DNA from: a virus
Virus record (IMG/VR): IMGVR_UViG_3300023273_000760
Span: 1-64,000 of that record
Direction: 5' to 3' (one strand)
Length of the DNA: 64,000 nt
The position numbers and the translations under genes are program-made. Shown here in pieces: positions 6,919 through 17,697 of this stretch. The notes under the pieces are model-generated. The model was not told the DNA's origin. It saw only the letters and a program-made list of their open reading frames with translations, and did not search any database. Within the stretch, counting starts at the first letter, position 1, and the number at the start of each line of letters is the position of its first letter.

Positions 6919-9420
6919 TTATCCTACGCCCTTCAATAAGTTACCTTGTAACCCTTTTGTTGCATTAACTTGGGCTCTAAGTAATTTGTTTTGTTCTTTT
7001 AATAAATCTATCATGGCTAATGCTGTACTGTTATTTAATCCATCTGAACTACTAACAGCATTAGAAGTGGTTGATGCTGATGCCGTTGTTGTACTATATG
7101 ATTTTGGTTCTGGTTTATCAGTCAATGCTATATCAGTATCTTCTCTTTTTGGTACTGTAGAATTAAACGGTGAATCTGCAGGTACTGGAGTTTTGATTCC
7201 TGTTTCTCTTTCTTTTGCGTCAGCAATTTTGGCTTCTGCTTCATCTTCGTCATCGTCACTGCCAAACCAATTAAACGGATTGAGCATTTTAATTTTATCA
7301 TAAATCCAAGAAACAGTATCACCTACCCAGCCAAACATAGTCATAAATGTATCGTAAATGAACATAATTGGAGTCTTTACCTTATCCCATATCCAACCAA
7401 ATGTATCTCCAATCCATCCAAACATTGTCATAAATGTTGACGTATAAAAATTAATAACCGGTTGTATGAAATCCCAAAGTGCGCCTACCTTTTCAGATAT
7501 CCAACCAAATAGTGTTCCTAATGTATCTGAAAAGAATTGCATTGTAGGACCTACTAGATCCCATAACATTGCCGCTTTGTCACCAATCCAAGAAAATACT
7601 CCCGATAGTGCGTCCCAGGCTCCGCCGATCCATCCTTTAATCGTTTCCCATCCAAACATTGCCAGCAATGCCGCACCGATTGCGAGGAATGGTGCAATAA
7701 TTGGTGCTGTAATAAGAGTTAGTATACCTGCACCTAATCCAATTAAAATAGTATCAAGATTACTTACAATCGCATTCCAAATACCAGAACCAATGTTGCT
7801 TACTAAAGAATTAAATGCTGTTCCAATAGCAGGACTAATTTTTTTATCCCAAACACTGCTGACAAAATTCATAATCTTATCCGTTATGCCTTCACCTTCG
7901 GCCGCTGAATCCCATTCTTCTTTAAGGAATGCAACCGTATCTTTTGCCCAATTAATAAGTCCTGTTGTAAATTCTTCAATCTTACTAACACCGCTTTCAC
8001 CTTTATCAGTAAACCAACTAGTAAATTTTCCAACATTGTCAACTAGCATATCAAACAATCCGCTTTCAACAAACACTTCCATTAGTTTTGCTCTTGCGCC
8101 AGCAATAGCATTTTCAAAGTTTGCGATAGCCGATGTACCTTTGTTACGCTTTTTTTGTTCCTCTTCAATTTCTTTAAAGTTCATGTTGTTTACTTTACCA
8201 GACATTTTTCTATAATCTGAAATTCCACTTAGTAAACCATCAAACCCTTCTTTGCCCATCAACGCCTGAATTGCGGCTGGATCCATATCTTTAAGCATTG
8301 ATTCAATTTGAGGACCAAATGCGGCCATTTTCTTCATGTATTCTTCTTGACCGATAGCACCATCACCCATTTGTTTTTGGAGTTCAGCAAAACCTGGAAT
8401 AGTTGATGCAAGTTTTTGTGCTAGAGGAGTTTGAGCAACACCGTCTGCCATATCTTTAATAGCACCTGCAAAACCTGGTAATTCAGATTCAACAAATGCT
8501 AAGTTGTTTTCAAAGTTTTTAAGATTTTCACCTTCTAATCTCATTTTTAATGCAAGTACGTTTGCTTCAGCATTTTGTTGTTTTAATAATGCTTCTGCTT
8601 CTTTTCGTGATTTACCTGTTACTTTAGCAAGTCGATCAATCTGCATTAAATAATCTTCAGATCCTTTGCGTAATTGTGCATCACTCATGCCTTGCAGTCT
8701 ACCTTGACGTGCTTGCATTTCCATGTATTCAGCAGTATGTTGATTAAGTTGCTCCATGGTAAATCCCATTCCCATAAAGTCTTGTCTGCTATTTCTAATA
8801 TCTTTTGCTAATTGACCAAAACGTTTTGCACCTTCAGTAGTTGTGCCACCAAGTAACATCATCTTGTCAGCATTATTACCAACCATCTCAGCAAACGCAT
8901 CTAGACCTAGTCCTGCTTGTGATGCCGCCATATTCATTTCAACTACGTTGTTACCAAAACTTGCGCCTACATCACTTAAATCTCTAAAAGTATCTACATT
9001 TCCTTCAATAAATCCTGTTAGTCCGCCGAGTGCATTTCCAATAAGTGGAACGTGCTGAGCAAAGTCGCTCATTCTGTTGCCGCCGGCGATGAATTCCATT
9101 CCTAATGCGCCAGCAGAAGTTACAAGACCCATCAAGCCTTTAGTTAACAATCCAGTCGCACTGCTAAGTCCCTTACCAAAGTTGTCTAATAATGTTGTAG
9201 TGTTTGAAATATTCTCACCAAAATCTCCTAATTTAGGAGAAAGGCCAGTTAATACTTTACTAATGCCGCCAGGACCGCCGGCTCCACCAGCACCGCCTCC
9301 GCCACCGGCTCCACCACCGCCTTTTTTAAGGGCGCGAAGTATCTCTTTAAGAGTAGAGTCCTCAGCCGCGTTTTGTGCAACTACGTTACCAAATCCAGGA
9401 ATATCAACTGTTACTGCCAT
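6919..9420 (-). CDS. Probable tail tape-measure protein
   Basis: 833 aa, helical and Ala/Gly-rich, with a hydrophobic segment and periodic F/W repeats (FGWIGD/LWD); divergent from gp26-like chaperone. Confidence 0.7.
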   Translation of the reverse strand: MAVTVDIPGFGNVVAQNAAEDSTLKEILRALKKGGGGAGGGGGAGGAGGPGGISKVLTGLSPKLGDFGENISNTTTLLDNFGKGLSSATGLLTKGLMGLVTSAGALGMEFIAGGNRMSDFAQHVPLIGNALGGLTGFIEGNVDTFRDLSDVGASFGNNVVEMNMAASQAGLGLDAFAEMVGNNADKMMLLGGTTTEGAKRFGQLAKDIRNSRQDFMGMGFTMEQLNQHTAEYMEMQARQGRLQGMSDAQLRKGSEDYLMQIDRLAKVTGKSRKEAEALLKQQNAEANVLALKMRLEGENLKNFENNLAFVESELPGFAGAIKDMADGVAQTPLAQKLASTIPGFAELQKQMGDGAIGQEEYMKKMAAFGPQIESMLKDMDPAAIQALMGKEGFDGLLSGISDYRKMSGKVNNMNFKEIEEEQKKRNKGTSAIANFENAIAGARAKLMEVFVESGLFDMLVDNVGKFTSWFTDKGESGVSKIEEFTTGLINWAKDTVAFLKEEWDSAAEGEGITDKIMNFVSSVWDKKISPAIGTAFNSLVSNIGSGIWNAIVSNLDTILIGLGAGILTLITAPIIAPFLAIGAALLAMFGWETIKGWIGGAWDALSGVFSWIGDKAAMLWDLVGPTMQFFSDTLGTLFGWISEKVGALWDFIQPVINFYTSTFMTMFGWIGDTFGWIWDKVKTPIMFIYDTFMTMFGWVGDTVSWIYDKIKMLNPFNWFGSDDDEDEAEAKIADAKERETGIKTPVPADSPFNSTVPKREDTDIALTDKPEPKSYSTTTASASTTSNAVSSSDGLNNSTALAMIDLLKEQNKLLRAQVNATKGLQGNLLKGVG

Positions 9421-10652: not shown

Positions 10653-10682
10653 AAAATAGGGCTCGAAAGGCCCTATTTTTTT
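10653..10682. terminator. Bidirectional intrinsic terminator
   Basis: AAAATAGGGC-TCGAAAG-GCCCTATTTT(TTT) between convergent genes. Confidence 0.85.
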
Positions 10683-12909
10683 ATCTGAATCGTTCGCCTG
10701 GTCGTGTAGTTCTTGCTGGTGCCGCTGGAGTTGCTCCTGCCGCCGCTTTACTTGTCATTGTTTTTGTAACTTGTGCTTGTTTAGTTCCTGCTTTAACACC
10801 TGGTGCTGTTAATTGATCTTTTACAAGTTTAGCAACATTTGCTTTTGTAATCTCTTTAGCAAGTTCTTCAAGGTCTGGTCTACCTAATCCTTTTGTATCA
10901 GCACTTGCTGATTTACCAGTTGCCATGTTTACCCATGATTGACCTAACCAAATATGATCTTGTCCGTTTGCTTGTCTAACAAGTCCAATATTTTTACCGT
11001 CTCTATTTGCTTCAATGGCTCCGTCTACTGCTGGATTTTTAGGATCAACTAGTTTAGCATCACCTTTAACCCATTTAGCAATTTCTTCATCACTTGCACG
11101 TCTTTCGCCTGCTGATGCGCCTGCATTGCCTGCTGATGCGCCTGCACTACCACTTGCACCCTGACCACCGCTTGTTGACGCTGTATCAGCGTTAGAACCG
11201 CCATCTGCTTGTGTTGTATTAGTTCCTGCATCACTTTTAGCGTCACCACCTGTTCCACTAGCGCCACCTTTAGCGTCACCACCTGTTACACCAGCGCCAC
11301 CTTTAGCATCGCCGCCTGTTCCACCAGTTTCGCTATCTGCTGTTTTTCCTGCACTAGCGGCAGGTGCTGGTAAATCTACTTTTTGTTCTTGACCAATTGA
11401 TTTAATATCATCTGAGGATAGACCTGCATCTGCTAGTATGTTTGCAATACTACCTGCATCAGTAGGCTCTCCCATTTTTTTCCATGACTTGTTTAGTTTG
11501 TTAGCAGTAACTTTATTACCTAAGTCTTTACCAACTTGCTTAACACCTGCGGCCGCTTTGCCTGCCGCGCCTTTAACTGCGCCACCAACTGCACTTGCCG
11601 CTTTGCCTAATCCGCGTTTCATCTTTGCGCCAAGCGAGTTTGGATTGTCTAATGGTAATTCACCTTGTGCTGGATCTGCTTCTGCAATATACTGTTCTAA
11701 TAGATATTTGTAAGAAGTTTCGTAATCAATTGACTCTTCTGCTTTTGCTCCGCCGCCTTGTAAATCAAGTTCACCTTGTTCTGGTTCTACTTCTTCGCCG
11801 CCAACTTTGATAGGTGTTTGCTTACCTGAGGCTTGTACACTACCTTGTGCCGCCGCCGCAATGGCGCTGTTTGCCATTTCTAAGTTACTTAAGAATTGAT
11901 CGTTTGCTACCGCAACTGCTTTTGAAATTTCATTTGAAAGATTCATGTCCGCAATGAATTCTGCCTTGTCAAAGGTCTTTGCAAATGTCCATAATTCGTT
12001 AAATGCATTTATGCCTTCTGGACTATTGCTGGTTCCGCCAGCAGTTGCATCTCTCATCACGTCAAGTAGTCTTGTAAATTCTCCCACTTGATCTTCTGGA
12101 ATAACCATAGATCCTAGTTCTTTGACACTGCTGAATCCGGGCACTTCAAATGTTTTTGTAAATCCTACTTCAAGTGTAGTGAGTCCTGGTGCCTTATCAT
12201 AAGGAATTGCATCGTATCTTAATCCTTCTAACCAGTCTCCAATGCCGTCTAATGCCCAACCTGCAATAGCACCGTATGCGGCTGTTTTAATTGACTTACC
12301 AACTGCACTTGAAAGTTTTTCGCCTTGCAATAATTCTTTTGTTGAACGTAGTATTAAACCTGCGGCCGCACCACCTACTGGACCACCGGCAAATGCCGCA
12401 ATCGCTGTTAAGATACCAACTGCTAAACTTGCTTTGCCTGGATTTTCTTTTGCCCAATCACTTACTTTTTGTATGCCTTGTACAATTTTACTGTCTTTGT
12501 TGTTTGCTGTAATTTGTTTTTTAAGATCTTCAAACTTAGCATCAGCGTTTTTAATAGGACCTGCATTTTGTGCCATGCGTCCAAGTTCATTAATTTTAGC
12601 ATCAACCTTTTTAGCAATGTCCACAGGAAGTTTAGCGGCCGCCGCAACACCAGCGCCTACTTTGCCTGCTATTGTTTTATTATCTCCACCGGCCATTGCA
12701 CGTTGTTCAGCACCTTGGAATATAGCATTAATTTGATCAGCAGTTAGTTCTGCTTCTGCAAGTTTAACGTATTCTTCAAGTAGGGGCCAAAGTTCGCGTT
12801 CCCATCTATTAAGATAAATCTTTTGAGTTTCAGTTAGTGTTTGATATGAACTTTCAGTTAATATCTGTGCTGTTCTATTGTTAGGTTTGTTAATTTCGTT
12901 TAAATTCAT
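10681..12909 (-). CDS. Hypothetical protein, probable internal virion protein
   Basis: 742 aa, N-terminal MNLNEI, hydrophobic Gly/Ala segment, low-complexity G/A/S/T linker; downstream of a late promoter. Confidence 0.55.
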   Translation of the reverse strand: MNLNEINKPNNRTAQILTESSYQTLTETQKIYLNRWERELWPLLEEYVKLAEAELTADQINAIFQGAEQRAMAGGDNKTIAGKVGAGVAAAAKLPVDIAKKVDAKINELGRMAQNAGPIKNADAKFEDLKKQITANNKDSKIVQGIQKVSDWAKENPGKASLAVGILTAIAAFAGGPVGGAAAGLILRSTKELLQGEKLSSAVGKSIKTAAYGAIAGWALDGIGDWLEGLRYDAIPYDKAPGLTTLEVGFTKTFEVPGFSSVKELGSMVIPEDQVGEFTRLLDVMRDATAGGTSNSPEGINAFNELWTFAKTFDKAEFIADMNLSNEISKAVAVANDQFLSNLEMANSAIAAAAQGSVQASGKQTPIKVGGEEVEPEQGELDLQGGGAKAEESIDYETSYKYLLEQYIAEADPAQGELPLDNPNSLGAKMKRGLGKAASAVGGAVKGAAGKAAAGVKQVGKDLGNKVTANKLNKSWKKMGEPTDAGSIANILADAGLSSDDIKSIGQEQKVDLPAPAASAGKTADSETGGTGGDAKGGAGVTGGDAKGGASGTGGDAKSDAGTNTTQADGGSNADTASTSGGQGASGSAGASAGNAGASAGERRASDEEIAKWVKGDAKLVDPKNPAVDGAIEANRDGKNIGLVRQANGQDHIWLGQSWVNMATGKSASADTKGLGRPDLEELAKEITKANVAKLVKDQLTAPGVKAGTKQAQVTKTMTSKAAAGATPAAPARTTRPGERFR
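11236..11326. repeat. 33-nt imperfect tandem repeat, ~2.7 copies (GGDAK units)
   Basis: tttagc(g/a)tc(a/g)cc(a/g)cctgtt units start at 11236, 11269 and 11302. Confidence 0.85.
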
Positions 12910-13529
12910 TATATCATACTCGCTAATCGTTTTTTATCTGCATCATTTAACAAATCTAATTGAGACTGTATACTTGCTGGAATTTCACTTGCTGGACCTG
13001 CCGCACTACCGTTTGCTGTTGGAGGTGCTTTACCATCAGGTGCTGTTGAACTACCTGTATCTGTTGATGCTCCAGTTGTTCCGCCTTTTGCACCTTGTTG
13101 TGCGCCAGCACCTGGTGCAGGTGAATCGCCAGTGCCAGTTGGAGCAGGTGTTGCACCACCTCCAACTTTTTTAGAATCTTGTACAACTTTTAATAGGATT
13201 TTGTCTAGCATGGCCTTGTTTAGTTGTCCTGTGCCAACATTGTTGTCAACAGCCTGTTCAGGATATTTTTTGCTTTTAAGCCAAGCACTAAGATCAGTAG
13301 CATCAAACTTGCTAATATTTTGTCCTGTTTGACCCATGTAGTTTTGGAATTCTCCACGAAGTTTATTTGCTTCGTCACCGGTATCAACTTGACCTGCGAT
13401 ACCCATAGCAGTGTCTTTAGCACCTACTTTTGCTAGTGCTTTAGCACCAAATTTCTTTAAACCTTGCTTAATAGCACCTACAGGTGCTTCGGAAACAGGT
13501 TTTTTAACAGCAATCTCGTTTATTTTCAT
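12909..13529 (-). CDS. Hypothetical protein, probable internal virion protein
   Basis: 206 aa, N-terminal MKINEI...VSE; AGGA RBS and TATAAATA upstream. Confidence 0.6.
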   Translation of the reverse strand: MKINEIAVKKPVSEAPVGAIKQGLKKFGAKALAKVGAKDTAMGIAGQVDTGDEANKLRGEFQNYMGQTGQNISKFDATDLSAWLKSKKYPEQAVDNNVGTGQLNKAMLDKILLKVVQDSKKVGGGATPAPTGTGDSPAPGAGAQQGAKGGTTGASTDTGSSTAPDGKAPPTANGSAAGPASEIPASIQSQLDLLNDADKKRLASMI

Positions 13530-13557
13530 TTCAAAATCCTAATCTGTAATGTATTAC

Positions 13558-13585
13558 TATTTATATCAAACTGTAGTAATAAATA
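13558..13585. promoter_or_regulatory. Divergent late promoter boxes
   Basis: TATAAATA (-, 13558-13565) and AATAAATA (+, 13578-13585). Confidence 0.65.
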
Positions 13586-13592
13586 TTCTACG

Positions 13593-13781
13593 ATGAGATA
13601 TACATTTAATATCGTCGATGTGTTGGGCAACATCGTTGAAGAAGGGCTATCCTCAGAGGAAGAAGCATCTACAGTTTTAGGTATTCTTCAACACAATGGA
13701 ATAGACACATCATCTTATATTATCAATAAGATTGAACATTATACAGTTAAGGGTTTAGGAAGAGATCCTGATTTACATTAA
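13593..13781 (+). CDS. Hypothetical protein (62 aa, MRYTFNIVD...GLGRDPDLH)
   Basis: Start reassigned to ATG 13593, 7 nt after a late box; the upstream part of the tracked ORF overlaps the opposite gene. Confidence 0.6.
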   Translation: MRYTFNIVDVLGNIVEEGLSSEEEASTVLGILQHNGIDTSSYIINKIEHYTVKGLGRDPDLH

Positions 13782-13789
13782 TGAATAAT

Positions 13790-14254
13790 CTATCAAACTC
13801 ATATATTGATAAACACAGTGTTTAGTAGATGTGCTAAAGCACATCTTGTTTTCGCTATCGCTCAAACACTTAATTTCTTTTTAATTAACAACAATAATTG
13901 CGAAGCAATTTAGCATCATGTAGATAGTTGAGCCACAATTCGCCCGTTGCCGGACGAATTGAGTAATTTGGGCCATCATGTGAGTTAGCCTTCACCACAC
14001 TGTTAAAGAAGATTACATATAATATGTACAGAGGCGGTAGATCGTCAACCCCTTACTTCAGCATTCGCAGTATCCACGGACGGCAGTTGTTCCTTAACAG
14101 TGCAAAAACACTTGCCGCGTATGTTGTATCTTTTTCACAGAGCATACATCTTTTATGCCTTAAGTTAGCATTTTCCTTGCAACGCACCAGTATCTGAATA
14201 TGGTATCTCACATATCCTCAAGATGAGTCGAGCATCCCCGACCAAACAATGTTG
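13790..14254 (-). ncRNA. Candidate large structured RNA (~460 nt) following the GIY-YIG gene
   Basis: Longest ORF-free gap in the window. Multiple helices use G-U pairs only on the minus strand; GCAA tetraloop; 14-bp long-range helix. Boundaries approximate. Confidence 0.65.
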
Positions 14255-14695
14255 CTATATCTTTGCCTTGATGCTATGTTCTAGCAATGCCTGTCGTAAT
14301 TTGTCTGAACCGCCAACTCTAACATTAATAATACCGTTGTAATAATCATCTCTCTCTAATACACGGCGGTCAAACTGTTCTCGTGCCTCTATGTAGGACA
14401 TTTCGCCCCTACCTTTACATAGGTATAATATTTCTCTTGTGAAGTTTTCTGGACCTAGTGCTTGTACATCAGCATTAAGACGATCTGATGAACCCCAATA
14501 GTCCTTCCAATCGCTTTCCTTAGTGCCTCTGCGTTTATTCTTTTTGCCTTTGAGTGGTGGCTTTGTGGTTTTAAATTTGGCTAGTTTCTTGCCTATATAC
14601 TTTTGCCCAGTGGTTGTATTTGTGATTAGATAAACAAATCCTTCATACTCGTCTGGTATAGTGTTTATCTGTTGTCCTTTGTAAGTCCAGTCCAT
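14255..14695 (-). CDS. Stand-alone GIY-YIG (Seg-like) nuclease domain protein
   Basis: GFVYLITN...KYIGKK, YWGSS, NFTREIL, EAREQ, YYNG; no C-terminal DNA-binding extension. Confidence 0.85.
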   Translation of the reverse strand: MDWTYKGQQINTIPDEYEGFVYLITNTTTGQKYIGKKLAKFKTTKPPLKGKKNKRRGTKESDWKDYWGSSDRLNADVQALGPENFTREILYLCKGRGEMSYIEAREQFDRRVLERDDYYNGIINVRVGGSDKLRQALLEHSIKAKI

Positions 14696-14700
14696 ACTGA

Positions 14701-14708
14701 TACTTACC
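14701..14708 (-). promoter_or_regulatory. Late promoter-like box (GGTAAGTA)
   Basis: TAA(A/G)TA variant 5 nt before the GIY-YIG ATG, same spacing as other boxes. Confidence 0.45.
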
Positions 14709-14713
14709 GTTGC

Positions 14714-14920
14714 CTATTTTTTCTTGTCTTGTTTTTGGTTCTTAAATGTTGTTAGAATCTCATCTGCACGTTGTTTAGCATGATTGCGTATTTCACGAAG
14801 CCATTTTCGAGATTCTTGCATAGTTCGCTCGCCTTTAAAACGCTCAAACTTTTCGTTTGCTTTAAAGTATTCTAAGTAAGCCTTAGTTAATTTGTCATGT
14901 GTATCGTCTTCAATGCTCAT
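14714..14920 (-). CDS. Small basic helical hypothetical protein (68 aa)
   Basis: ATGA-coupled to the gp46 stop; K/R-rich. Confidence 0.7.
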   Translation of the reverse strand: MSIEDDTHDKLTKAYLEYFKANEKFERFKGERTMQESRKWLREIRNHAKQRADEILTTFKNQKQDKKK

Positions 14921-16689
14921 TCTACAATATCAACGTCGTTTGCGTAACTAGTGAAGCCGTTTTCTTTTATAACTTTAAGTACATTTTGTACACGACCTTG
15001 TAGTTCGTCTTTATGTGAAATCAAATAGATATTCTTCTTACGTTCTCTACCCATTTTCTTAAGAATAGCAAGACTGCTTTCAACACCAGCAGTGTCCATA
15101 CCACTATCAATTAACTCGTCAACGAATAATAAGTTAACATTTTGATATAAACTTTCCCAAACATCACGGAATGCAAAACTTAGTCCTAAGATAAGTCTAT
15201 TGCGTTCACCTCTTGACAAGTTATCAAAGTCTAAGTCTTGTCCGAGTTGTGTAATCTCAACATTCAAATCGTTTTGGAATACTACTTGATGCGGTAATCC
15301 GATACGATCTAAATAATATGTTAATCTGTTGTTTAGATATGCAAGATTTTGTTCAATAATCTTTTTACGAATAAACGAATCTTTATTTGTTAATAGTTTG
15401 TATAAAAATTCTTGATGTTCTTTAAGACTTGTTAATTCGTTAATAGTGTCCCATGAAACTTCTTGAATAGCAGTTTGTTGTAATTCTTCAATTTGATCAA
15501 CATATGGATCGTTTTCTGTTTCTTTAGACTCTAATGCTCGTTTTAAATTATCAACATTACTTCGATGCTCGTATGCTTCTTTGGCTGTTTCATAAAATGT
15601 GTTAGGTTTTGCATCTAGATCACCTATTTCATCTAATTTAGATTGCACATTAATATACTTGTCATTAATCTCCATTAAGTATGTCATTGTTTCGCCATAC
15701 TCTTCTTGGAGTTGTAATTCAATTTGATGTTTCTTTTCTTCGTGTAGTTCTTGACCACAACTGTGACACTTCGCATTAACAAGATTTTCTAAGTCTTTTG
15801 TATACTTTGTAATTTGTTTGTCGGTTTGAGTTAATGCACTTTCAAGTGTAGAACGTTCTTTTTCAAGATTAGTTTTTTGCTTATTGTTTTCAGACCAATT
15901 AGCCAATAACTCGTGTGCTTCGAGTTCTTTTTCAATGTCTAAATGTTCTAATTCATCAATGCCTTTTTGTAAACGGTCACAATCTTTAGCATTTGATTGA
16001 CGCCAAGCACTTGATTTAACTTTTAAACTTTCAATAGTTTCTGCAATTTTCTCATTGCTTGTTTGTACTGCATTAATACGAGCAGTTTCATCTGTAATAG
16101 CATCTCGAACTTCTTTTTGTTTTATTTTTAGTTCTTCGGCTTTTTCAGTTAGAATAGTAATACCTAACAACTGTTCAATAATAGCACGTTGATCGTTTGA
16201 TTTCATTGCTAAAAAAGGTTCAGTGTACGTATTAAGAGCAACAATATGCTTAAACATATCATGGCTCATGTGTAATAATGTATTAATTTCGTCTTGTGTT
16301 CGTCGACTGTCGCCTTGTGACTCATCAGTCATCTCTTGTTCGTTATCATCAATGTAGAACTTTAGTAGATTAGGACTGCGTCCACGCTCAATTCTATATT
16401 GTGTTCCGTCTTTTTCAAATTCTAGTGTAACTAACATACCTTTAGAATTTGTTTTGTTAATTAAGTTATTAAGTTTGATATTTGTTAATGCTTGTCCATA
16501 CAAAGCATAACTTAATGCGTTAGCAATAGTAGTCTTACCTGTACCATTTCGTGAACCACTGTCGTCACCACCTTGGTCTAAGTTCTCGCCTAGTACTAAT
16601 GTAAGTTGTCTGTTACTAAAATCTACAGCCTGGGTCTGATTGCCCACACTCATAAAGTTTTTAACAGTTAAATCTTTTAACAAAATCAT
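14917..16689 (-). CDS. gp46: Recombination endonuclease ATPase subunit (gp46/SbcC/Rad50)
   Basis: Walker A NGTGKTT, zinc hook CHSC, signature LSRGE, Walker B LLFVDE, ISH. Confidence 0.95.
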   Translation of the reverse strand: MILLKDLTVKNFMSVGNQTQAVDFSNRQLTLVLGENLDQGGDDSGSRNGTGKTTIANALSYALYGQALTNIKLNNLINKTNSKGMLVTLEFEKDGTQYRIERGRSPNLLKFYIDDNEQEMTDESQGDSRRTQDEINTLLHMSHDMFKHIVALNTYTEPFLAMKSNDQRAIIEQLLGITILTEKAEELKIKQKEVRDAITDETARINAVQTSNEKIAETIESLKVKSSAWRQSNAKDCDRLQKGIDELEHLDIEKELEAHELLANWSENNKQKTNLEKERSTLESALTQTDKQITKYTKDLENLVNAKCHSCGQELHEEKKHQIELQLQEEYGETMTYLMEINDKYINVQSKLDEIGDLDAKPNTFYETAKEAYEHRSNVDNLKRALESKETENDPYVDQIEELQQTAIQEVSWDTINELTSLKEHQEFLYKLLTNKDSFIRKKIIEQNLAYLNNRLTYYLDRIGLPHQVVFQNDLNVEITQLGQDLDFDNLSRGERNRLILGLSFAFRDVWESLYQNVNLLFVDELIDSGMDTAGVESSLAILKKMGRERKKNIYLISHKDELQGRVQNVLKVIKENGFTSYANDVDIVE

Positions 16690-16692
16690 ATT

Positions 16693-17697
16693 TTATAACT
16701 CATGGTAAATGTCTAGTAGTTTTTGTTTGTTGTAATTTTCCGATTCAATTGCTTCAATCTCTTGTGATACAATTTGATCAATACTTTCAAACTTTGTAAT
16801 ATCAATATCTGAATTTATTTCGTCATCTTGTGTACTAGGAATTAATGTAATTTCTCTACACTCGAAATTCTTCATAAATTCTTCTTTAATGAAACTTGCT
16901 TCTTCGTAACTAATTGGAATATCTAGTGTTACTCTTAGATACATATTGGGTTTAATAAGTGTATCTTTTTGATCAATAAGTTGCGATAATTTTACAGTTC
17001 TATACTTAGGACATTGCGGCCAATCAATATACTGTGGTTCGCCACCATGTTCTAAAATCATCATACCGCGTTTATCATCCCAAGCATCAGCATAGTTGTG
17101 CGGAAACGCATTACCAATATATGTAATATTTCCTAATGTTTGACGTTTATGAAAATGTCCTGAGAATACATATTCTTGATGTTTAAAATGTTCTGCTTGA
17201 AGTTCGCCTGTTTCAGGCATTTTTACCATAGCATTCATATAAAAGTTTGGAAGTTCAAAATGCCCAAACATATATTTGCTTTTAACTTTAGGAATTTGTT
17301 TCCATTCTTCGCCTACTAGCCAAGGGACCATTGTACTATCACCAATTGTTGTCATTTTATTAACAACAGTAATACCGTCAATGTGATTAGCAAATTCTAC
17401 AGAATGGATATCCCGTTTATCTTTATAGTATAAATCGTGATTACCGGGAAAGTAAAAGAATTGATCAAATGCTTTTCCTAGTTTTTCCAATGAACGTATC
17501 GAATGGTCCATCGTAATAATATTTAAACTGTTTCTGTTATGGTGCCAGTCGCCCATAAAGATGCCTGTTTCACATCCATTTAATTTTGCTTGTTCAATAT
17601 ACCAATCAACAAATGATTCACAGTCTTCGTTGTGCGTTTTAGAGTTAGATTTTAATCCAAAATGGATATCAGTAAACACTGCCGCTTTTTTAAACAC
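16693..17697 (-). CDS. gp47: Recombination endonuclease nuclease subunit (gp47/SbcD/Mre11)
   Basis: DIHFG, GDWHH, GNHD, GHFE, SGHFH metallophosphoesterase motifs; GTG start with GGAG RBS. Confidence 0.95.
   Translation of the reverse strand: MFKKAAVFTDIHFGLKSNSKTHNEDCESFVDWYIEQAKLNGCETGIFMGDWHHNRNSLNIITMDHSIRSLEKLGKAFDQFFYFPGNHDLYYKDKRDIHSVEFANHIDGITVVNKMTTIGDSTMVPWLVGEEWKQIPKVKSKYMFGHFELPNFYMNAMVKMPETGELQAEHFKHQEYVFSGHFHKRQTLGNITYIGNAFPHNYADAWDDKRGMMILEHGGEPQYIDWPQCPKYRTVKLSQLIDQKDTLIKPNMYLRVTLDIPISYEEASFIKEEFMKNFECREITLIPSTQDDEINSDIDITKFESIDQIVSQEIEAIESENYNKQKLLDIYHEL

What the first reader, a model, noticed from the sequence alone, without database searches (positions are those of the whole stretch)
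13790..14708. Minimal GIY-YIG nuclease immediately followed by a ~460-nt highly structured RNA: candidate ribonucleoprotein system
Seen: the 146-aa protein is a bare GIY-YIG domain with a K/R-rich insert (KFKTTKPPLKGKKNKRRGTK) and no DNA-binding tail. Directly after its stop, on the same strand, is the longest ORF-free gap in the window. Its helices work only as minus-strand RNA: GGUCGGG-GAUG-CUCGACU (14226-14243); CAAUUCGUCCG-GCAA-CGGGCGAAUUG (13936-13961, G-U pair and GNRA loop); and a 14-bp long-range helix GCACUGUUAAGGAA (14090-14103) with UUCUUUAACAGUGU (13997-14010) containing two G-U pairs. One strand of that helix sits inside the GCGGCA/UGCCGU stem (14113-14118/14080-14085), implying a pseudoknot. 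Established: homing GIY-YIGs normally need a separate DNA-binding domain, and IscB/TnpB nucleases get specificity from an adjacent structured RNA. Inference: an RNA-associated, possibly RNA-guided, GIY-YIG nuclease, or a large ncRNA tied to the gp46/47 recombination operon. RNA guidance itself is not shown by the sequence.
Basis: partly seen in the sequence, partly recalled or inferred. Interest (0 to 1): 0.85.

Follow-up and report, generated by a model that had tools for sequence, protein, structure and literature searches.

The report
Twin-box structured phage RNA beside nuclease
The gene-free stretch behind a small DNA-cutting enzyme gene of this uncultured giant T4-like phage encodes a real, knotted RNA of about 370 bases that hundreds of related aquatic phages share; its job is unknown, and the enzyme looks like a mobile neighbour, not a partner that the RNA guides.

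Summary
The 146-aa ORF (14255-14695, minus) is a bare SegE-type GIY-YIG domain. The 473-nt gap behind it is the longest internal ORF-free stretch of the window. It encodes a minus-strand structured RNA (about 14256-13887) that ends in a terminator-like hairpin.

The structure's covariation score is 0.444, against 0.186 for shuffles and about 0.09 for slid controls.

The RNA matches no Rfam family. It belongs to a large family found only in uncultured viral contigs (at least 164 distinct copies here). Each copy carries the same 7-nt word twice, ACAUGAU in this window. This scan has met the family many times on other DNA.

RNA guidance is not supported:
- Five complete cultured phages carry the nuclease family but no such RNA.
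- The RNA also occurs beside a PD-(D/E)XK nuclease, or beside no nuclease at all.
- No end-located guide segment exists.
- RNA and nuclease alleles are shuffled. One contig has a 97% identical RNA with a 68% identical nuclease gene; another has an 88% identical nuclease gene with a different RNA form.

Best reading: an independent trans-acting RNA with a mobile nuclease gene parked at its 5' border.

The parts
14255..14695 (-). 146-aa stand-alone GIY-YIG nuclease gene (PHROG 447 family, often mislabelled 'NAD synthetase')
   Evidence: Pfam PF19835 E 1.2e-35; phrog_447 E 8e-40, profile length 148; GIY/YIG tyrosines and conserved R87, E103/E106 and N120 are invariant in 5 homologues
13887..14256 (-). 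twin-box structured non-coding RNA, whole extent as inferred (conserved 5' leader overlapping the nuclease stop codon, through terminator hairpin and U-rich tail)
   Evidence: Covariation on alignment A1; no Rfam match; contigs of four RNA libraries cover 13931-14413; ends are inferred, not mapped
14226..14243 (-).
   Evidence: Whole-stem swaps in relatives, e.g. GAUCCGC/GCGGAUC and GCUGAGU/ACUCAGC
14185..14225 (-). P2 (CAUC/GGUG) enclosing hairpin P3 (14196-14217)
   Evidence: Changes on both sides in 4 of 4 pairs (P2) and 7 of 7 pairs (P3)
14119..14147 (-). P5 hairpin with the near-invariant loop GCUCUGUGAAAAAG
   Evidence: Changes on both sides in 4 of 5 stem pairs; loop bases invariant in 23 sequences; a related motif, CUGUGGAAAAAG, occurs in the other RNA form
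14082..14116 (-). P6 stem (GGCA..UGCC plus UGUU..AACA); its loop supplies the 5' strand of the pseudoknot
   Evidence: Changes on both sides in 8 of 8 pairs
14092..14102 (-). PK1 5' strand CACUGUUAAGG (in the P6 loop)
   Evidence: Pairs with 13998-14008; changes on both sides in 9 of 11 pairs; at least 6 different helix sequences among relatives
13998..14008 (-). PK1 3' strand CUUUAACAGUG
   Evidence: See PK1 5' strand
14014..14053 (-). P8 (AGGGG/CCUCU, 14030-14053) and the variable hairpin P9 (14014-14028)
   Evidence: P8 is 96.5% paired, with changes on both sides in 2 pairs; P9 has such changes in 5 of 5 pairs but only 62% of cells are paired (alignment is poor there)
13975..13981 (-). box 1, ACAUGAU, in the loop of a short hairpin (GGCU/GGCC, 13971-13990)
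   Evidence: Box identical to box 2 in 119 of 123 RNAs; 10 box variants in 164 RNAs; the flanking stem covaries by eye in A3, but its register shifts and the column count failed (25.8% paired)
13936..13961 (-).
   Evidence: Changes on both sides in 6 of 11 pairs; replaced by GAUGGAACC..GGUUCCGUC in the other RNA form
13915..13921 (-). box 2, ACAUGAU
   Evidence: covariance model R1 scores 67.2 bits on 13909-13997 (the window's sequence was in the training alignment)
13887..13910 (-). P12 hairpin AAUUGC-UUCG-GCAAUU plus U-rich tail: probable intrinsic terminator of the RNA
   Evidence: Changes on both sides in 4 of 6 pairs; a hairpin with a U-rich tail stands at the same place in relatives; termination itself is inferred
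13827..13867 (.). separate conserved module (GUUUGAGCGAUAGCGAAAAC plus hairpin); on the plus strand it reads as the terminator of the convergent small ORF 13593-13781
   Evidence: Terminator-like site on the plus strand at 13827-13846; module conserved in most relatives whatever the direction of the next gene
14714..14920 (-). 68-aa ORF between gp46 and the nuclease gene, part of the conserved block gp47-gp46-s68-GIY-YIG-RNA
   Evidence: tblastn finds it in most related contigs; no family match

Best explanation
The gap encodes a stand-alone, trans-acting structured RNA of about 370 nt on the minus strand: the 'twin-box' RNA. It has about ten helices and at least one pseudoknot. It begins at or just before the nuclease stop codon and ends at an intrinsic-terminator-like hairpin. 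It shows the same 7-nt word (ACAUGAU here) twice, once in a hairpin loop and once 3' of the central hairpin. The two words change together between phages and have no complement inside the RNA. The RNA therefore most likely binds two copies of an outside partner, or two sites on one partner; that partner could be a nucleic-acid loop or a dimeric protein. The GIY-YIG gene is a separate module. It is a small free-standing nuclease gene that moves between phage backbones by recombination and habitually sits at the 5' border of this very conserved RNA gene, as free-standing homing-type nuclease genes sit beside conserved targets. It does not need the RNA, and the RNA does not need it. Shown: the RNA structure, its strand, its distribution, the twin boxes and the mosaic ancestry. 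Inferred: trans action through the boxes, the RNA ends, and homing-like behaviour of the nuclease.
For: RNA reality: 80.9% of cells are paired against 63.8% in shuffles; 294 cells carry changes on both sides against 114; the covariation score is 0.444 against 0.186 for shuffles (0 of 500 reach it) and 0.07-0.10 when partners are slid. The 60 sequences of the other RNA form also show helices with changes on both sides. RNA blocks are 90-99% conserved where flanking genes are about 75%. Twin boxes. No internal complement and no third copy within -2.6 to +1.2 kb. Independence from the nuclease: the RNA lies behind a PDDEXK_15 nuclease in L119 and L161 and next to one in L152 and L182; no nuclease lies within 1 kb in L171, L178, L185, L359, L361, L363 and L413. 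The conserved RNA 5' leader (..CACAUAAGGUUGG..) is present whatever lies upstream. The nuclease family occurs without the RNA in five complete cultured phages. Mosaic ancestry by nucleotide identity to the window: L123 has RNA 97%, GIY 68%, gp46 77%; L004 has GIY 88%, RNA 48% (a different 5' form), gp46 70%. A metatranscriptome contig joins a window-like nuclease 3' end to the other RNA form at 14262. Presence in RNA libraries: contigs of four runs cover 13931-14413.
Against: The adjacency is far stronger than chance. 93 of 99 RNAs have this nuclease gene directly upstream on the same strand, and a second genomic context has it directly downstream. When the GIY-YIG gene is absent, another small nuclease often takes its place, so a functional link to nucleases in general is not excluded. 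The sample is phylogenetically non-independent and comes from pattern-based searches. No partner for the boxes was found. Transcript ends, abundance and independent transcription are not shown, because the RNA-library evidence is assembled contigs that may include DNA. Near-universal, intact nuclease genes are unusual for a purely selfish element.
Confidence: 0.6

Rival explanations
1. The nuclease and the RNA form a working ribonucleoprotein. The RNA guides, activates or restrains the GIY-YIG nuclease; for instance, the twin boxes pair with a target and compensate for the missing DNA-binding domain.
For: Same-strand adjacency in 93 of 99 cases, and adjacency kept in a second gene order and context (L085, L159). 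The nuclease has no DNA-binding tail and has a K/R-rich insert. RNA-library contigs bridge the nuclease stop codon into the RNA.
Against: The nuclease family, with the same K/R insert, lives without the RNA in complete cultured phage genomes. The RNA lives without the nuclease. Nuclease and RNA alleles are shuffled, not co-inherited. There is no terminal guide segment, 7-nt boxes are too short for specific targeting, and no box-matching site was found nearby.
Confidence: 0.12
2. The structure is a cis-acting element: a long 3' UTR that stabilises, processes or times the nuclease mRNA, or a barrier between convergent transcription units. It would not be a free RNA with its own function.
For: It starts at the stop codon, on the same strand. 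RNA contigs run from the ORF into it. It sits between convergent genes in this window, with terminators on both strands.
Against: It keeps its sequence and fold behind unrelated upstream genes and in other genomic contexts. It is far more conserved than the nuclease mRNA that it would serve. About ten helices, a pseudoknot and co-varying twin boxes are far more than stabilisers or terminators need.
Confidence: 0.1
3. It is a catalytic RNA or an intron relic: a group-I-like ribozyme whose homing endonuclease gene lies beside it, or another self-processing RNA.
For: GIY-YIG genes are classic passengers of phage group I introns (established knowledge). The RNA's size and pseudoknotted core would fit a ribozyme.
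Against: No match to group I or II introns, RNase P or any ribozyme family, even at E up to 10 on the 391-nt stretch. No interrupted host gene: upstream is the nuclease stop codon, downstream a terminator and a convergent ORF. No joint skipping exactly the RNA stretch was seen in RNA-library contigs; the one joint in the region (14145 to 14478, with 315 other letters between) replaces rather than excises sequence and looks like a related strain.
Confidence: 0.05

Closest known systems
GOLLD and ROOL RNAs (large ornate ncRNAs often carried by phages and prophages; Rfam RF01998, RF03087; cryo-EM study PMC12286853)
   Same: Large, heavily structured, phage-borne non-coding RNAs. They were found by comparative genomics in metagenomes, have no known function, and are more conserved than neighbouring genes.
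   Different: No sequence or structure match. This RNA is smaller (about 370 nt). It has the twin 7-nt boxes and sits habitually next to a small nuclease gene rather than next to tRNAs. Self-assembly was not tested.
HEARO / omega-RNA with IscB, and TnpB with its omega-RNA (OMEGA systems)
   Same: A structured RNA encoded directly beside a small nuclease gene on the same strand.
   Different: The nuclease fold differs (GIY-YIG, not RuvC/HNH). There is no terminal variable guide, no transposon ends, no obligate co-occurrence and no co-inheritance.
Free-standing homing-type endonuclease genes of T4-like phages (seg and mob genes, e.g. segB in the T4 tRNA gene cluster; my own knowledge, not tested here)
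   Same: A GIY-YIG gene of the SegE Pfam family sits in an intergenic slot beside a highly conserved (here RNA) gene. Its ancestry is discordant with its flanks, and it is replaced by another nuclease family at the same slot.
   Different: It has only 146 aa and no DNA-binding domain (T4 Seg proteins are about 200-220 aa). It is present in nearly all members of the clade rather than sporadically. No cleavage site is known.
Polynucleobacter-1 RNA motif (Rfam RF01718; Weinberg et al. 2010, PMC2864571), named as closest relative in earlier notes of this scan
   Same: An orphan structured RNA from freshwater or estuary samples (table in PMC2864571). Earlier agents reported that the first third of some freshwater family members matches it.
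   Different: The match was not reproduced here. There was no RF01718 match on the window's RNA at E up to 10, nor in 25 related loci covering all RNA forms sampled: 12 loci at E up to 1 and 13 at gathering score.

Membership tests
GIY-YIG nuclease superfamily (Pfam PF19835 SegE_GIY-YIG; PHROG 447) | Profile match above the curated cut-off | tested here: met
   122.9 bits against a cut-off of 25, residues 3-123 on profile positions 1-123; phrog_447 E 8.2e-40
GIY-YIG nuclease superfamily (Pfam PF19835 SegE_GIY-YIG; PHROG 447) | GIY and YIG motifs plus conserved Arg, Glu and Asn of the active site | tested here: met
   GFVY..KYIG; Y22, Y33, R87, E103, E106 and N120 are invariant among 5 homologues of 51-69% identity. 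Which residue plays which role is inferred.
Free-standing homing endonuclease of the T4 Seg type | Separate C-terminal DNA-binding domain | tested here: not met
   146 aa; only 23 residues lie beyond the catalytic domain; no second Pfam domain; the family profile is 148 long
Free-standing homing endonuclease of the T4 Seg type | Mobility: ancestry discordant with flanking genes, sporadic presence | tested here: inconclusive
   Ancestry is discordant: the GIY gene is 88% identical to L004 where gp46 is 70%, but 68% to L123 where gp46 is 77%. Presence, however, is near-universal in the clade (93 of 99).
Free-standing homing endonuclease of the T4 Seg type | Cleaves the nuclease-less allele near its own insertion site | not testable with these tools
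   Needs purified protein and nuclease-less junction DNA (e.g. the type seen in L359 or L178)
RNA-guided nuclease system (OMEGA/CRISPR-like) | Variable guide segment at one end of a conserved RNA scaffold | tested here: not met
   Both ends are conserved: a 5' leader and P1, and a 3' box 2 and terminator. Variable parts are paired stems or internal linkers.
RNA-guided nuclease system (OMEGA/CRISPR-like) | Nuclease and RNA occur only together and are co-inherited | tested here: not met
   Nuclease without RNA in 5 complete phage genomes; RNA without this nuclease; alleles shuffled
Any Rfam 15 family (including group I/II introns, RNase P, tmRNA, GOLLD, ROOL, HEARO, RF01718 Polynucleobacter-1) | Covariance-model match | tested here: not met
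   No match at E up to 10 on window 13880-14270. Only chance-level snoRNA/lncRNA hits appear elsewhere in 12500-16000. Nothing lies on the RNA in 25 related loci. ARAGORN finds no tRNA or tmRNA.
Twin-box phage RNA (provisional family of this scan, not published) | Two identical 7-nt boxes flanking a conserved hairpin, preceded by a pseudoknotted core | tested here: met
   ACAUGAU at 13981-13975 and 13921-13915. Boxes are identical in 119 of 123 family members. PK1 covaries. Caveat: four box positions were fixed by my search patterns.

The most novel reading that the evidence does not exclude
The twin boxes may be a programmable reader. Each has the form N-N-A-U-(G/A)-A-N: a codon-like AUG or AUA followed by an A. 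This recalls the specifier codon plus purine of T-box leaders, and box 1 is displayed in a hairpin loop. The RNA could therefore grip two anticodon loops (tRNA-Met or tRNA-Ile with a CAU anticodon), or two copies of another nucleic-acid loop. Through this it could control translation or tRNA-directed defence during infection, possibly handing the bound partner to the neighbouring small nuclease. Nothing tested here excludes this, and nothing shows it. Four of the seven box positions were fixed by my search patterns.
Probability: 0.08. Interest if true: 0.9.

Novelty: new variant of a known kind. Interest (0 to 1): 0.62.

Why it matters
Large, intricately folded RNAs with no known function are rare, and each one solved so far has revealed new biochemistry. 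This one is widespread in uncultured aquatic jumbo T4-like phages and more conserved than their core genes. It has a feature that invites direct experiments: two identical boxes that change together. It is also a clean case for separating 'always next to' from 'works with'. The nuclease-RNA pairing looks like IscB/TnpB at first sight, yet the comparative evidence points to a mobile nuclease gene parked beside a conserved RNA gene. If the minority reading were right, it would be the first RNA-dependent GIY-YIG enzyme.

Tried and rejected
- **Rfam:** five searches found nothing on the RNA. The only near-hit was a beta-tmRNA match at E 0.15 inside gp46 of L007, which is chance.
- **blastn against cultured phages:** neither the window's RNA nor the other RNA form gave a match among 50,697 genomes.
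- **Genome contigs pattern scan:** this returned almost only chance matches. nhmmer kept one (L208), the same phage block binned into a Crocinitomicaceae MAG.
- **Promoter motif:** TATAGGCA-like words recur just upstream of many family members, but the motif is not enriched in the window (40 found, 55 expected). I dropped the idea.
- **Box partners:** I found no internal complement of the boxes and no third copy or complement within -2.6 to +1.2 kb.
- **L161:** I first took the PD-(D/E)XK gene for a pseudogene. It is intact with a GTG start, so there is no 'RNA outliving a decayed nuclease' argument.
- **Structure-aware MAFFT (Q-INS-i):** not installed. A single RNAalifold run over all RNA forms gave only a partial structure, so I curated the helices by hand.
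- **P10 (the stem closing box 1):** it failed the column count because its register shifts between sequences (25.8% paired). I keep it as a by-eye observation only.
- **Metatranscriptome contigs:** no RNA-library contig covers 13840-13933, and the contigs stop at different places (13931-13991). Contigs cannot show RNA ends, so I draw no conclusion on the 3' end.
- **AAAUGAA-box clade:** the 328-375-aa gene upstream has an SGGYDS-like motif but no Pfam match. No link to tRNA modification can be claimed.

Full report
**Setting.** The window is part of a 98.7-kb IMG/VR viral contig that CheckV estimates to be 28% complete. It carries T4-type genes. The closest gp46 in cultured phages is only 48-49% identical and comes from jumbo phages such as PA5oct and Phosso. 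The finding lies in a minus-strand block: gp47 (16693-17697), gp46 (14917-16689), a 68-aa ORF, the 146-aa ORF (14255-14695), then a 473-nt ORF-free gap. A small convergent plus-strand ORF ends at 13781. The gap is the longest internal ORF-free stretch of the window.

**The protein.** It matches Pfam SegE_GIY-YIG over residues 3-123 (E 1.2e-35) and PHROG 447 (profile length 148, mislabelled 'NAD synthetase'). The GIY/YIG tyrosines and conserved Arg, Glu and Asn residues are invariant in homologues of 51-69% identity. The K/R-rich insert is also present in the homologue of Methylophilales phage Melnitz. tblastn finds the family in 776 cultured phage records. 'Minimal GIY-YIG without a DNA-binding tail' is therefore correct, but it describes a whole populous family.

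**The RNA is real.**
- The minus strand folds better than shuffles (z -2.83), while the plus strand reaches only z -1.49.
- Eighty viral contigs with an 87-94% identical nuclease keep the same synteny and an ORF-free stretch of 450-570 nt behind the stop codon.
- In most of them that stretch has blocks 90-99% identical, where the flanking genes are about 75% identical. Variable parts change as whole stems.
- The window and a few contigs carry a different form of the RNA. I collected relatives of this form with a motif from its invariant hairpin loop and aligned 23 of them (A1).
- On A1 I scored a structure of 13 helices written from the window's sequence. 80.9% of cells pair against 63.8% in shuffles. 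294 cells carry changes on both sides against 114. The covariation score is 0.444 against 0.186 for shuffles (0 of 500 reach it) and 0.07-0.10 when partners are slid by 1-3 columns.
- The 5' strand of that long-range helix lies in the loop of the GGCA/UGCC stem, so the pseudoknot is confirmed.
- G-U is the commonest pair at about ten positions, which places the RNA on the minus strand.
- A hairpin with a U-rich tail (13910-13887) looks like its terminator.
- The remaining 13827-13867 is a separate conserved module that reads as a plus-strand terminator.

**Family and twin boxes.**
- No Rfam family matches the window's RNA, even at E up to 10 on the 391-nt stretch alone. None matches on the RNA in 25 related loci.
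- Cultured phages have no similar DNA.
- Earlier notes of this scan had described the same family on many other genomes. They pointed to two 'boxes' and to Rfam RF01718 as a relative.
- I tested both leads. RF01718 is not detectable in any locus I sampled.
- The boxes hold. The 7-mer after CUC and the 7-mer after UCU are identical in 119 of 123 RNAs. Across 164 distinct RNAs there are ten box variants, each changed in both boxes. Four box positions were fixed by my search patterns; positions 2, 5 and 7 were free.
- In the window the box is ACAUGAU (13981-13975 and 13921-13915).
- No complement exists inside the RNA, and no third copy lies nearby.

**Is the nuclease a partner?**

The adjacency is striking. 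Of 99 distinct RNAs with at least 900 nt on both sides, 93 have the GIY-YIG gene directly upstream on the same strand. In another phage context the order is reversed (L085, L159).

Four lines of evidence argue against dependence:
1. In L119 and L161 an intact PDDEXK_15 nuclease gene occupies the slot, and L152 and L182 have one alongside. L171, L178, L185, L359, L361, L363 and L413 have no nuclease within 1 kb. The conserved RNA 5' leader is present whatever lies upstream.
2. A covariance model of the twin-box module scores 67 bits in the own genome but at most 16.5 bits (E 0.31) in five complete cultured phage genomes that encode the nuclease family. In two of these the gene abuts coding sequence.
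3. The modules have different histories. Contig L123 has an RNA 97% identical to the window's, but a nuclease gene only 68% identical and a gp46 77% identical. L004, L005 and L018 have nuclease genes 87-89% identical, but the other RNA form (41-48%) and gp46 at 64-70%. A metatranscriptome contig joins a window-like nuclease 3' end to the other RNA form exactly at 14262. Many IMG/VR contigs break 35-200 nt into the RNA, as expected where strains share conserved blocks.
4. Neither RNA end is variable in the way a guide is.

**Expression.** Six salt-marsh metatranscriptome runs hold the stretch. Contigs of four of them cover 13931-14413, and two bridge the stop codon. These are assembled contigs from RNA libraries. 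They show presence, not transcript ends or level, and DNA carry-over cannot be excluded.

**Reading.** The best-supported picture is an independent trans-acting structured RNA that works through its twin boxes. A mobile small nuclease gene habitually sits at its conserved 5' border, in the way free-standing homing-type nuclease genes sit beside conserved targets. I give this 0.6. A true nuclease-RNA partnership keeps about 0.12, because the adjacency recurs in two gene orders and nucleases of two families occupy the slot. A cis-acting 3' UTR gets 0.1 and a ribozyme or intron relic 0.05.

**Novelty.** This is an uncatalogued family among the large structured phage RNAs of unknown function. The scan has found it repeatedly on other DNA; this window adds a divergent form of the RNA and the module-shuffling evidence.

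Noticed in passing
window 13827-13867: A conserved module (GUUUGAGCGAUAGCGAAAAC plus an 8-bp hairpin) follows the RNA's own terminator in most relatives, whatever the direction of the next gene. Only on the strand opposite to the RNA does it read as a hairpin plus U-tract. It may shield the RNA gene from antisense transcription.
   Followed up: partly
window 13593-13781 (+): A small convergent ORF (62 aa from its ATG) matches no family. Its last 30 nt (13752-13782) are 97% identical in otherwise diverged contigs (L004, L006-L009), which is unusually conserved for a coding 3' end.
   Followed up: no
L004-L083, 35-200 nt after the nuclease stop codon: At least 15 of 80 IMG/VR contigs end inside the first 200 nt of the RNA gene. 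This is an assembly break point, consistent with co-occurring strains sharing the conserved RNA blocks.
   Followed up: partly
L119:8216-8725, L161:1529-2032, L152:2183-2680, L182:3532-4041: A phage PD-(D/E)XK endonuclease (Pfam PDDEXK_15; PHROG 'RusA-like resolvase') replaces the GIY-YIG gene at the slot in front of the RNA, or sits next to the RNA.
   Followed up: partly
L119:8730-8930 and L171:13737-13943: A 67-69-aa ORF with a zinc-ribbon-like motif (GK(I/V)(V/I)CN(S/T)C) lies directly upstream of the RNA in two unrelated contexts. It matches no family.
   Followed up: no
L359:4266-5249, L363:4193-5317: In the clade whose boxes read AAAUGAA, no nuclease lies beside the RNA. The upstream same-strand gene (328-375 aa) carries an SGGYDS motif reminiscent of PP-loop ATPases but matches no Pfam family.
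   Followed up: partly
L185 (IMGVR_UViG_3300002144_000453), around 7523-7726: A family member lies among genes that look cellular: a class II aldolase (Pfam), plus IscU-like, YccA-like, cytochrome c-like and SHMT-like ORFs (these four by eye). No nuclease is nearby. It could be a bacterial island or a phage rich in metabolic genes.
   Followed up: no
window 10681-13529 (-): The two genes downstream of the locus (742 aa and 206 aa) are Ala/Gly/Lys-rich, low-complexity proteins. The 206-aa one has no Pfam match; the 742-aa one was not searched.
   Followed up: no
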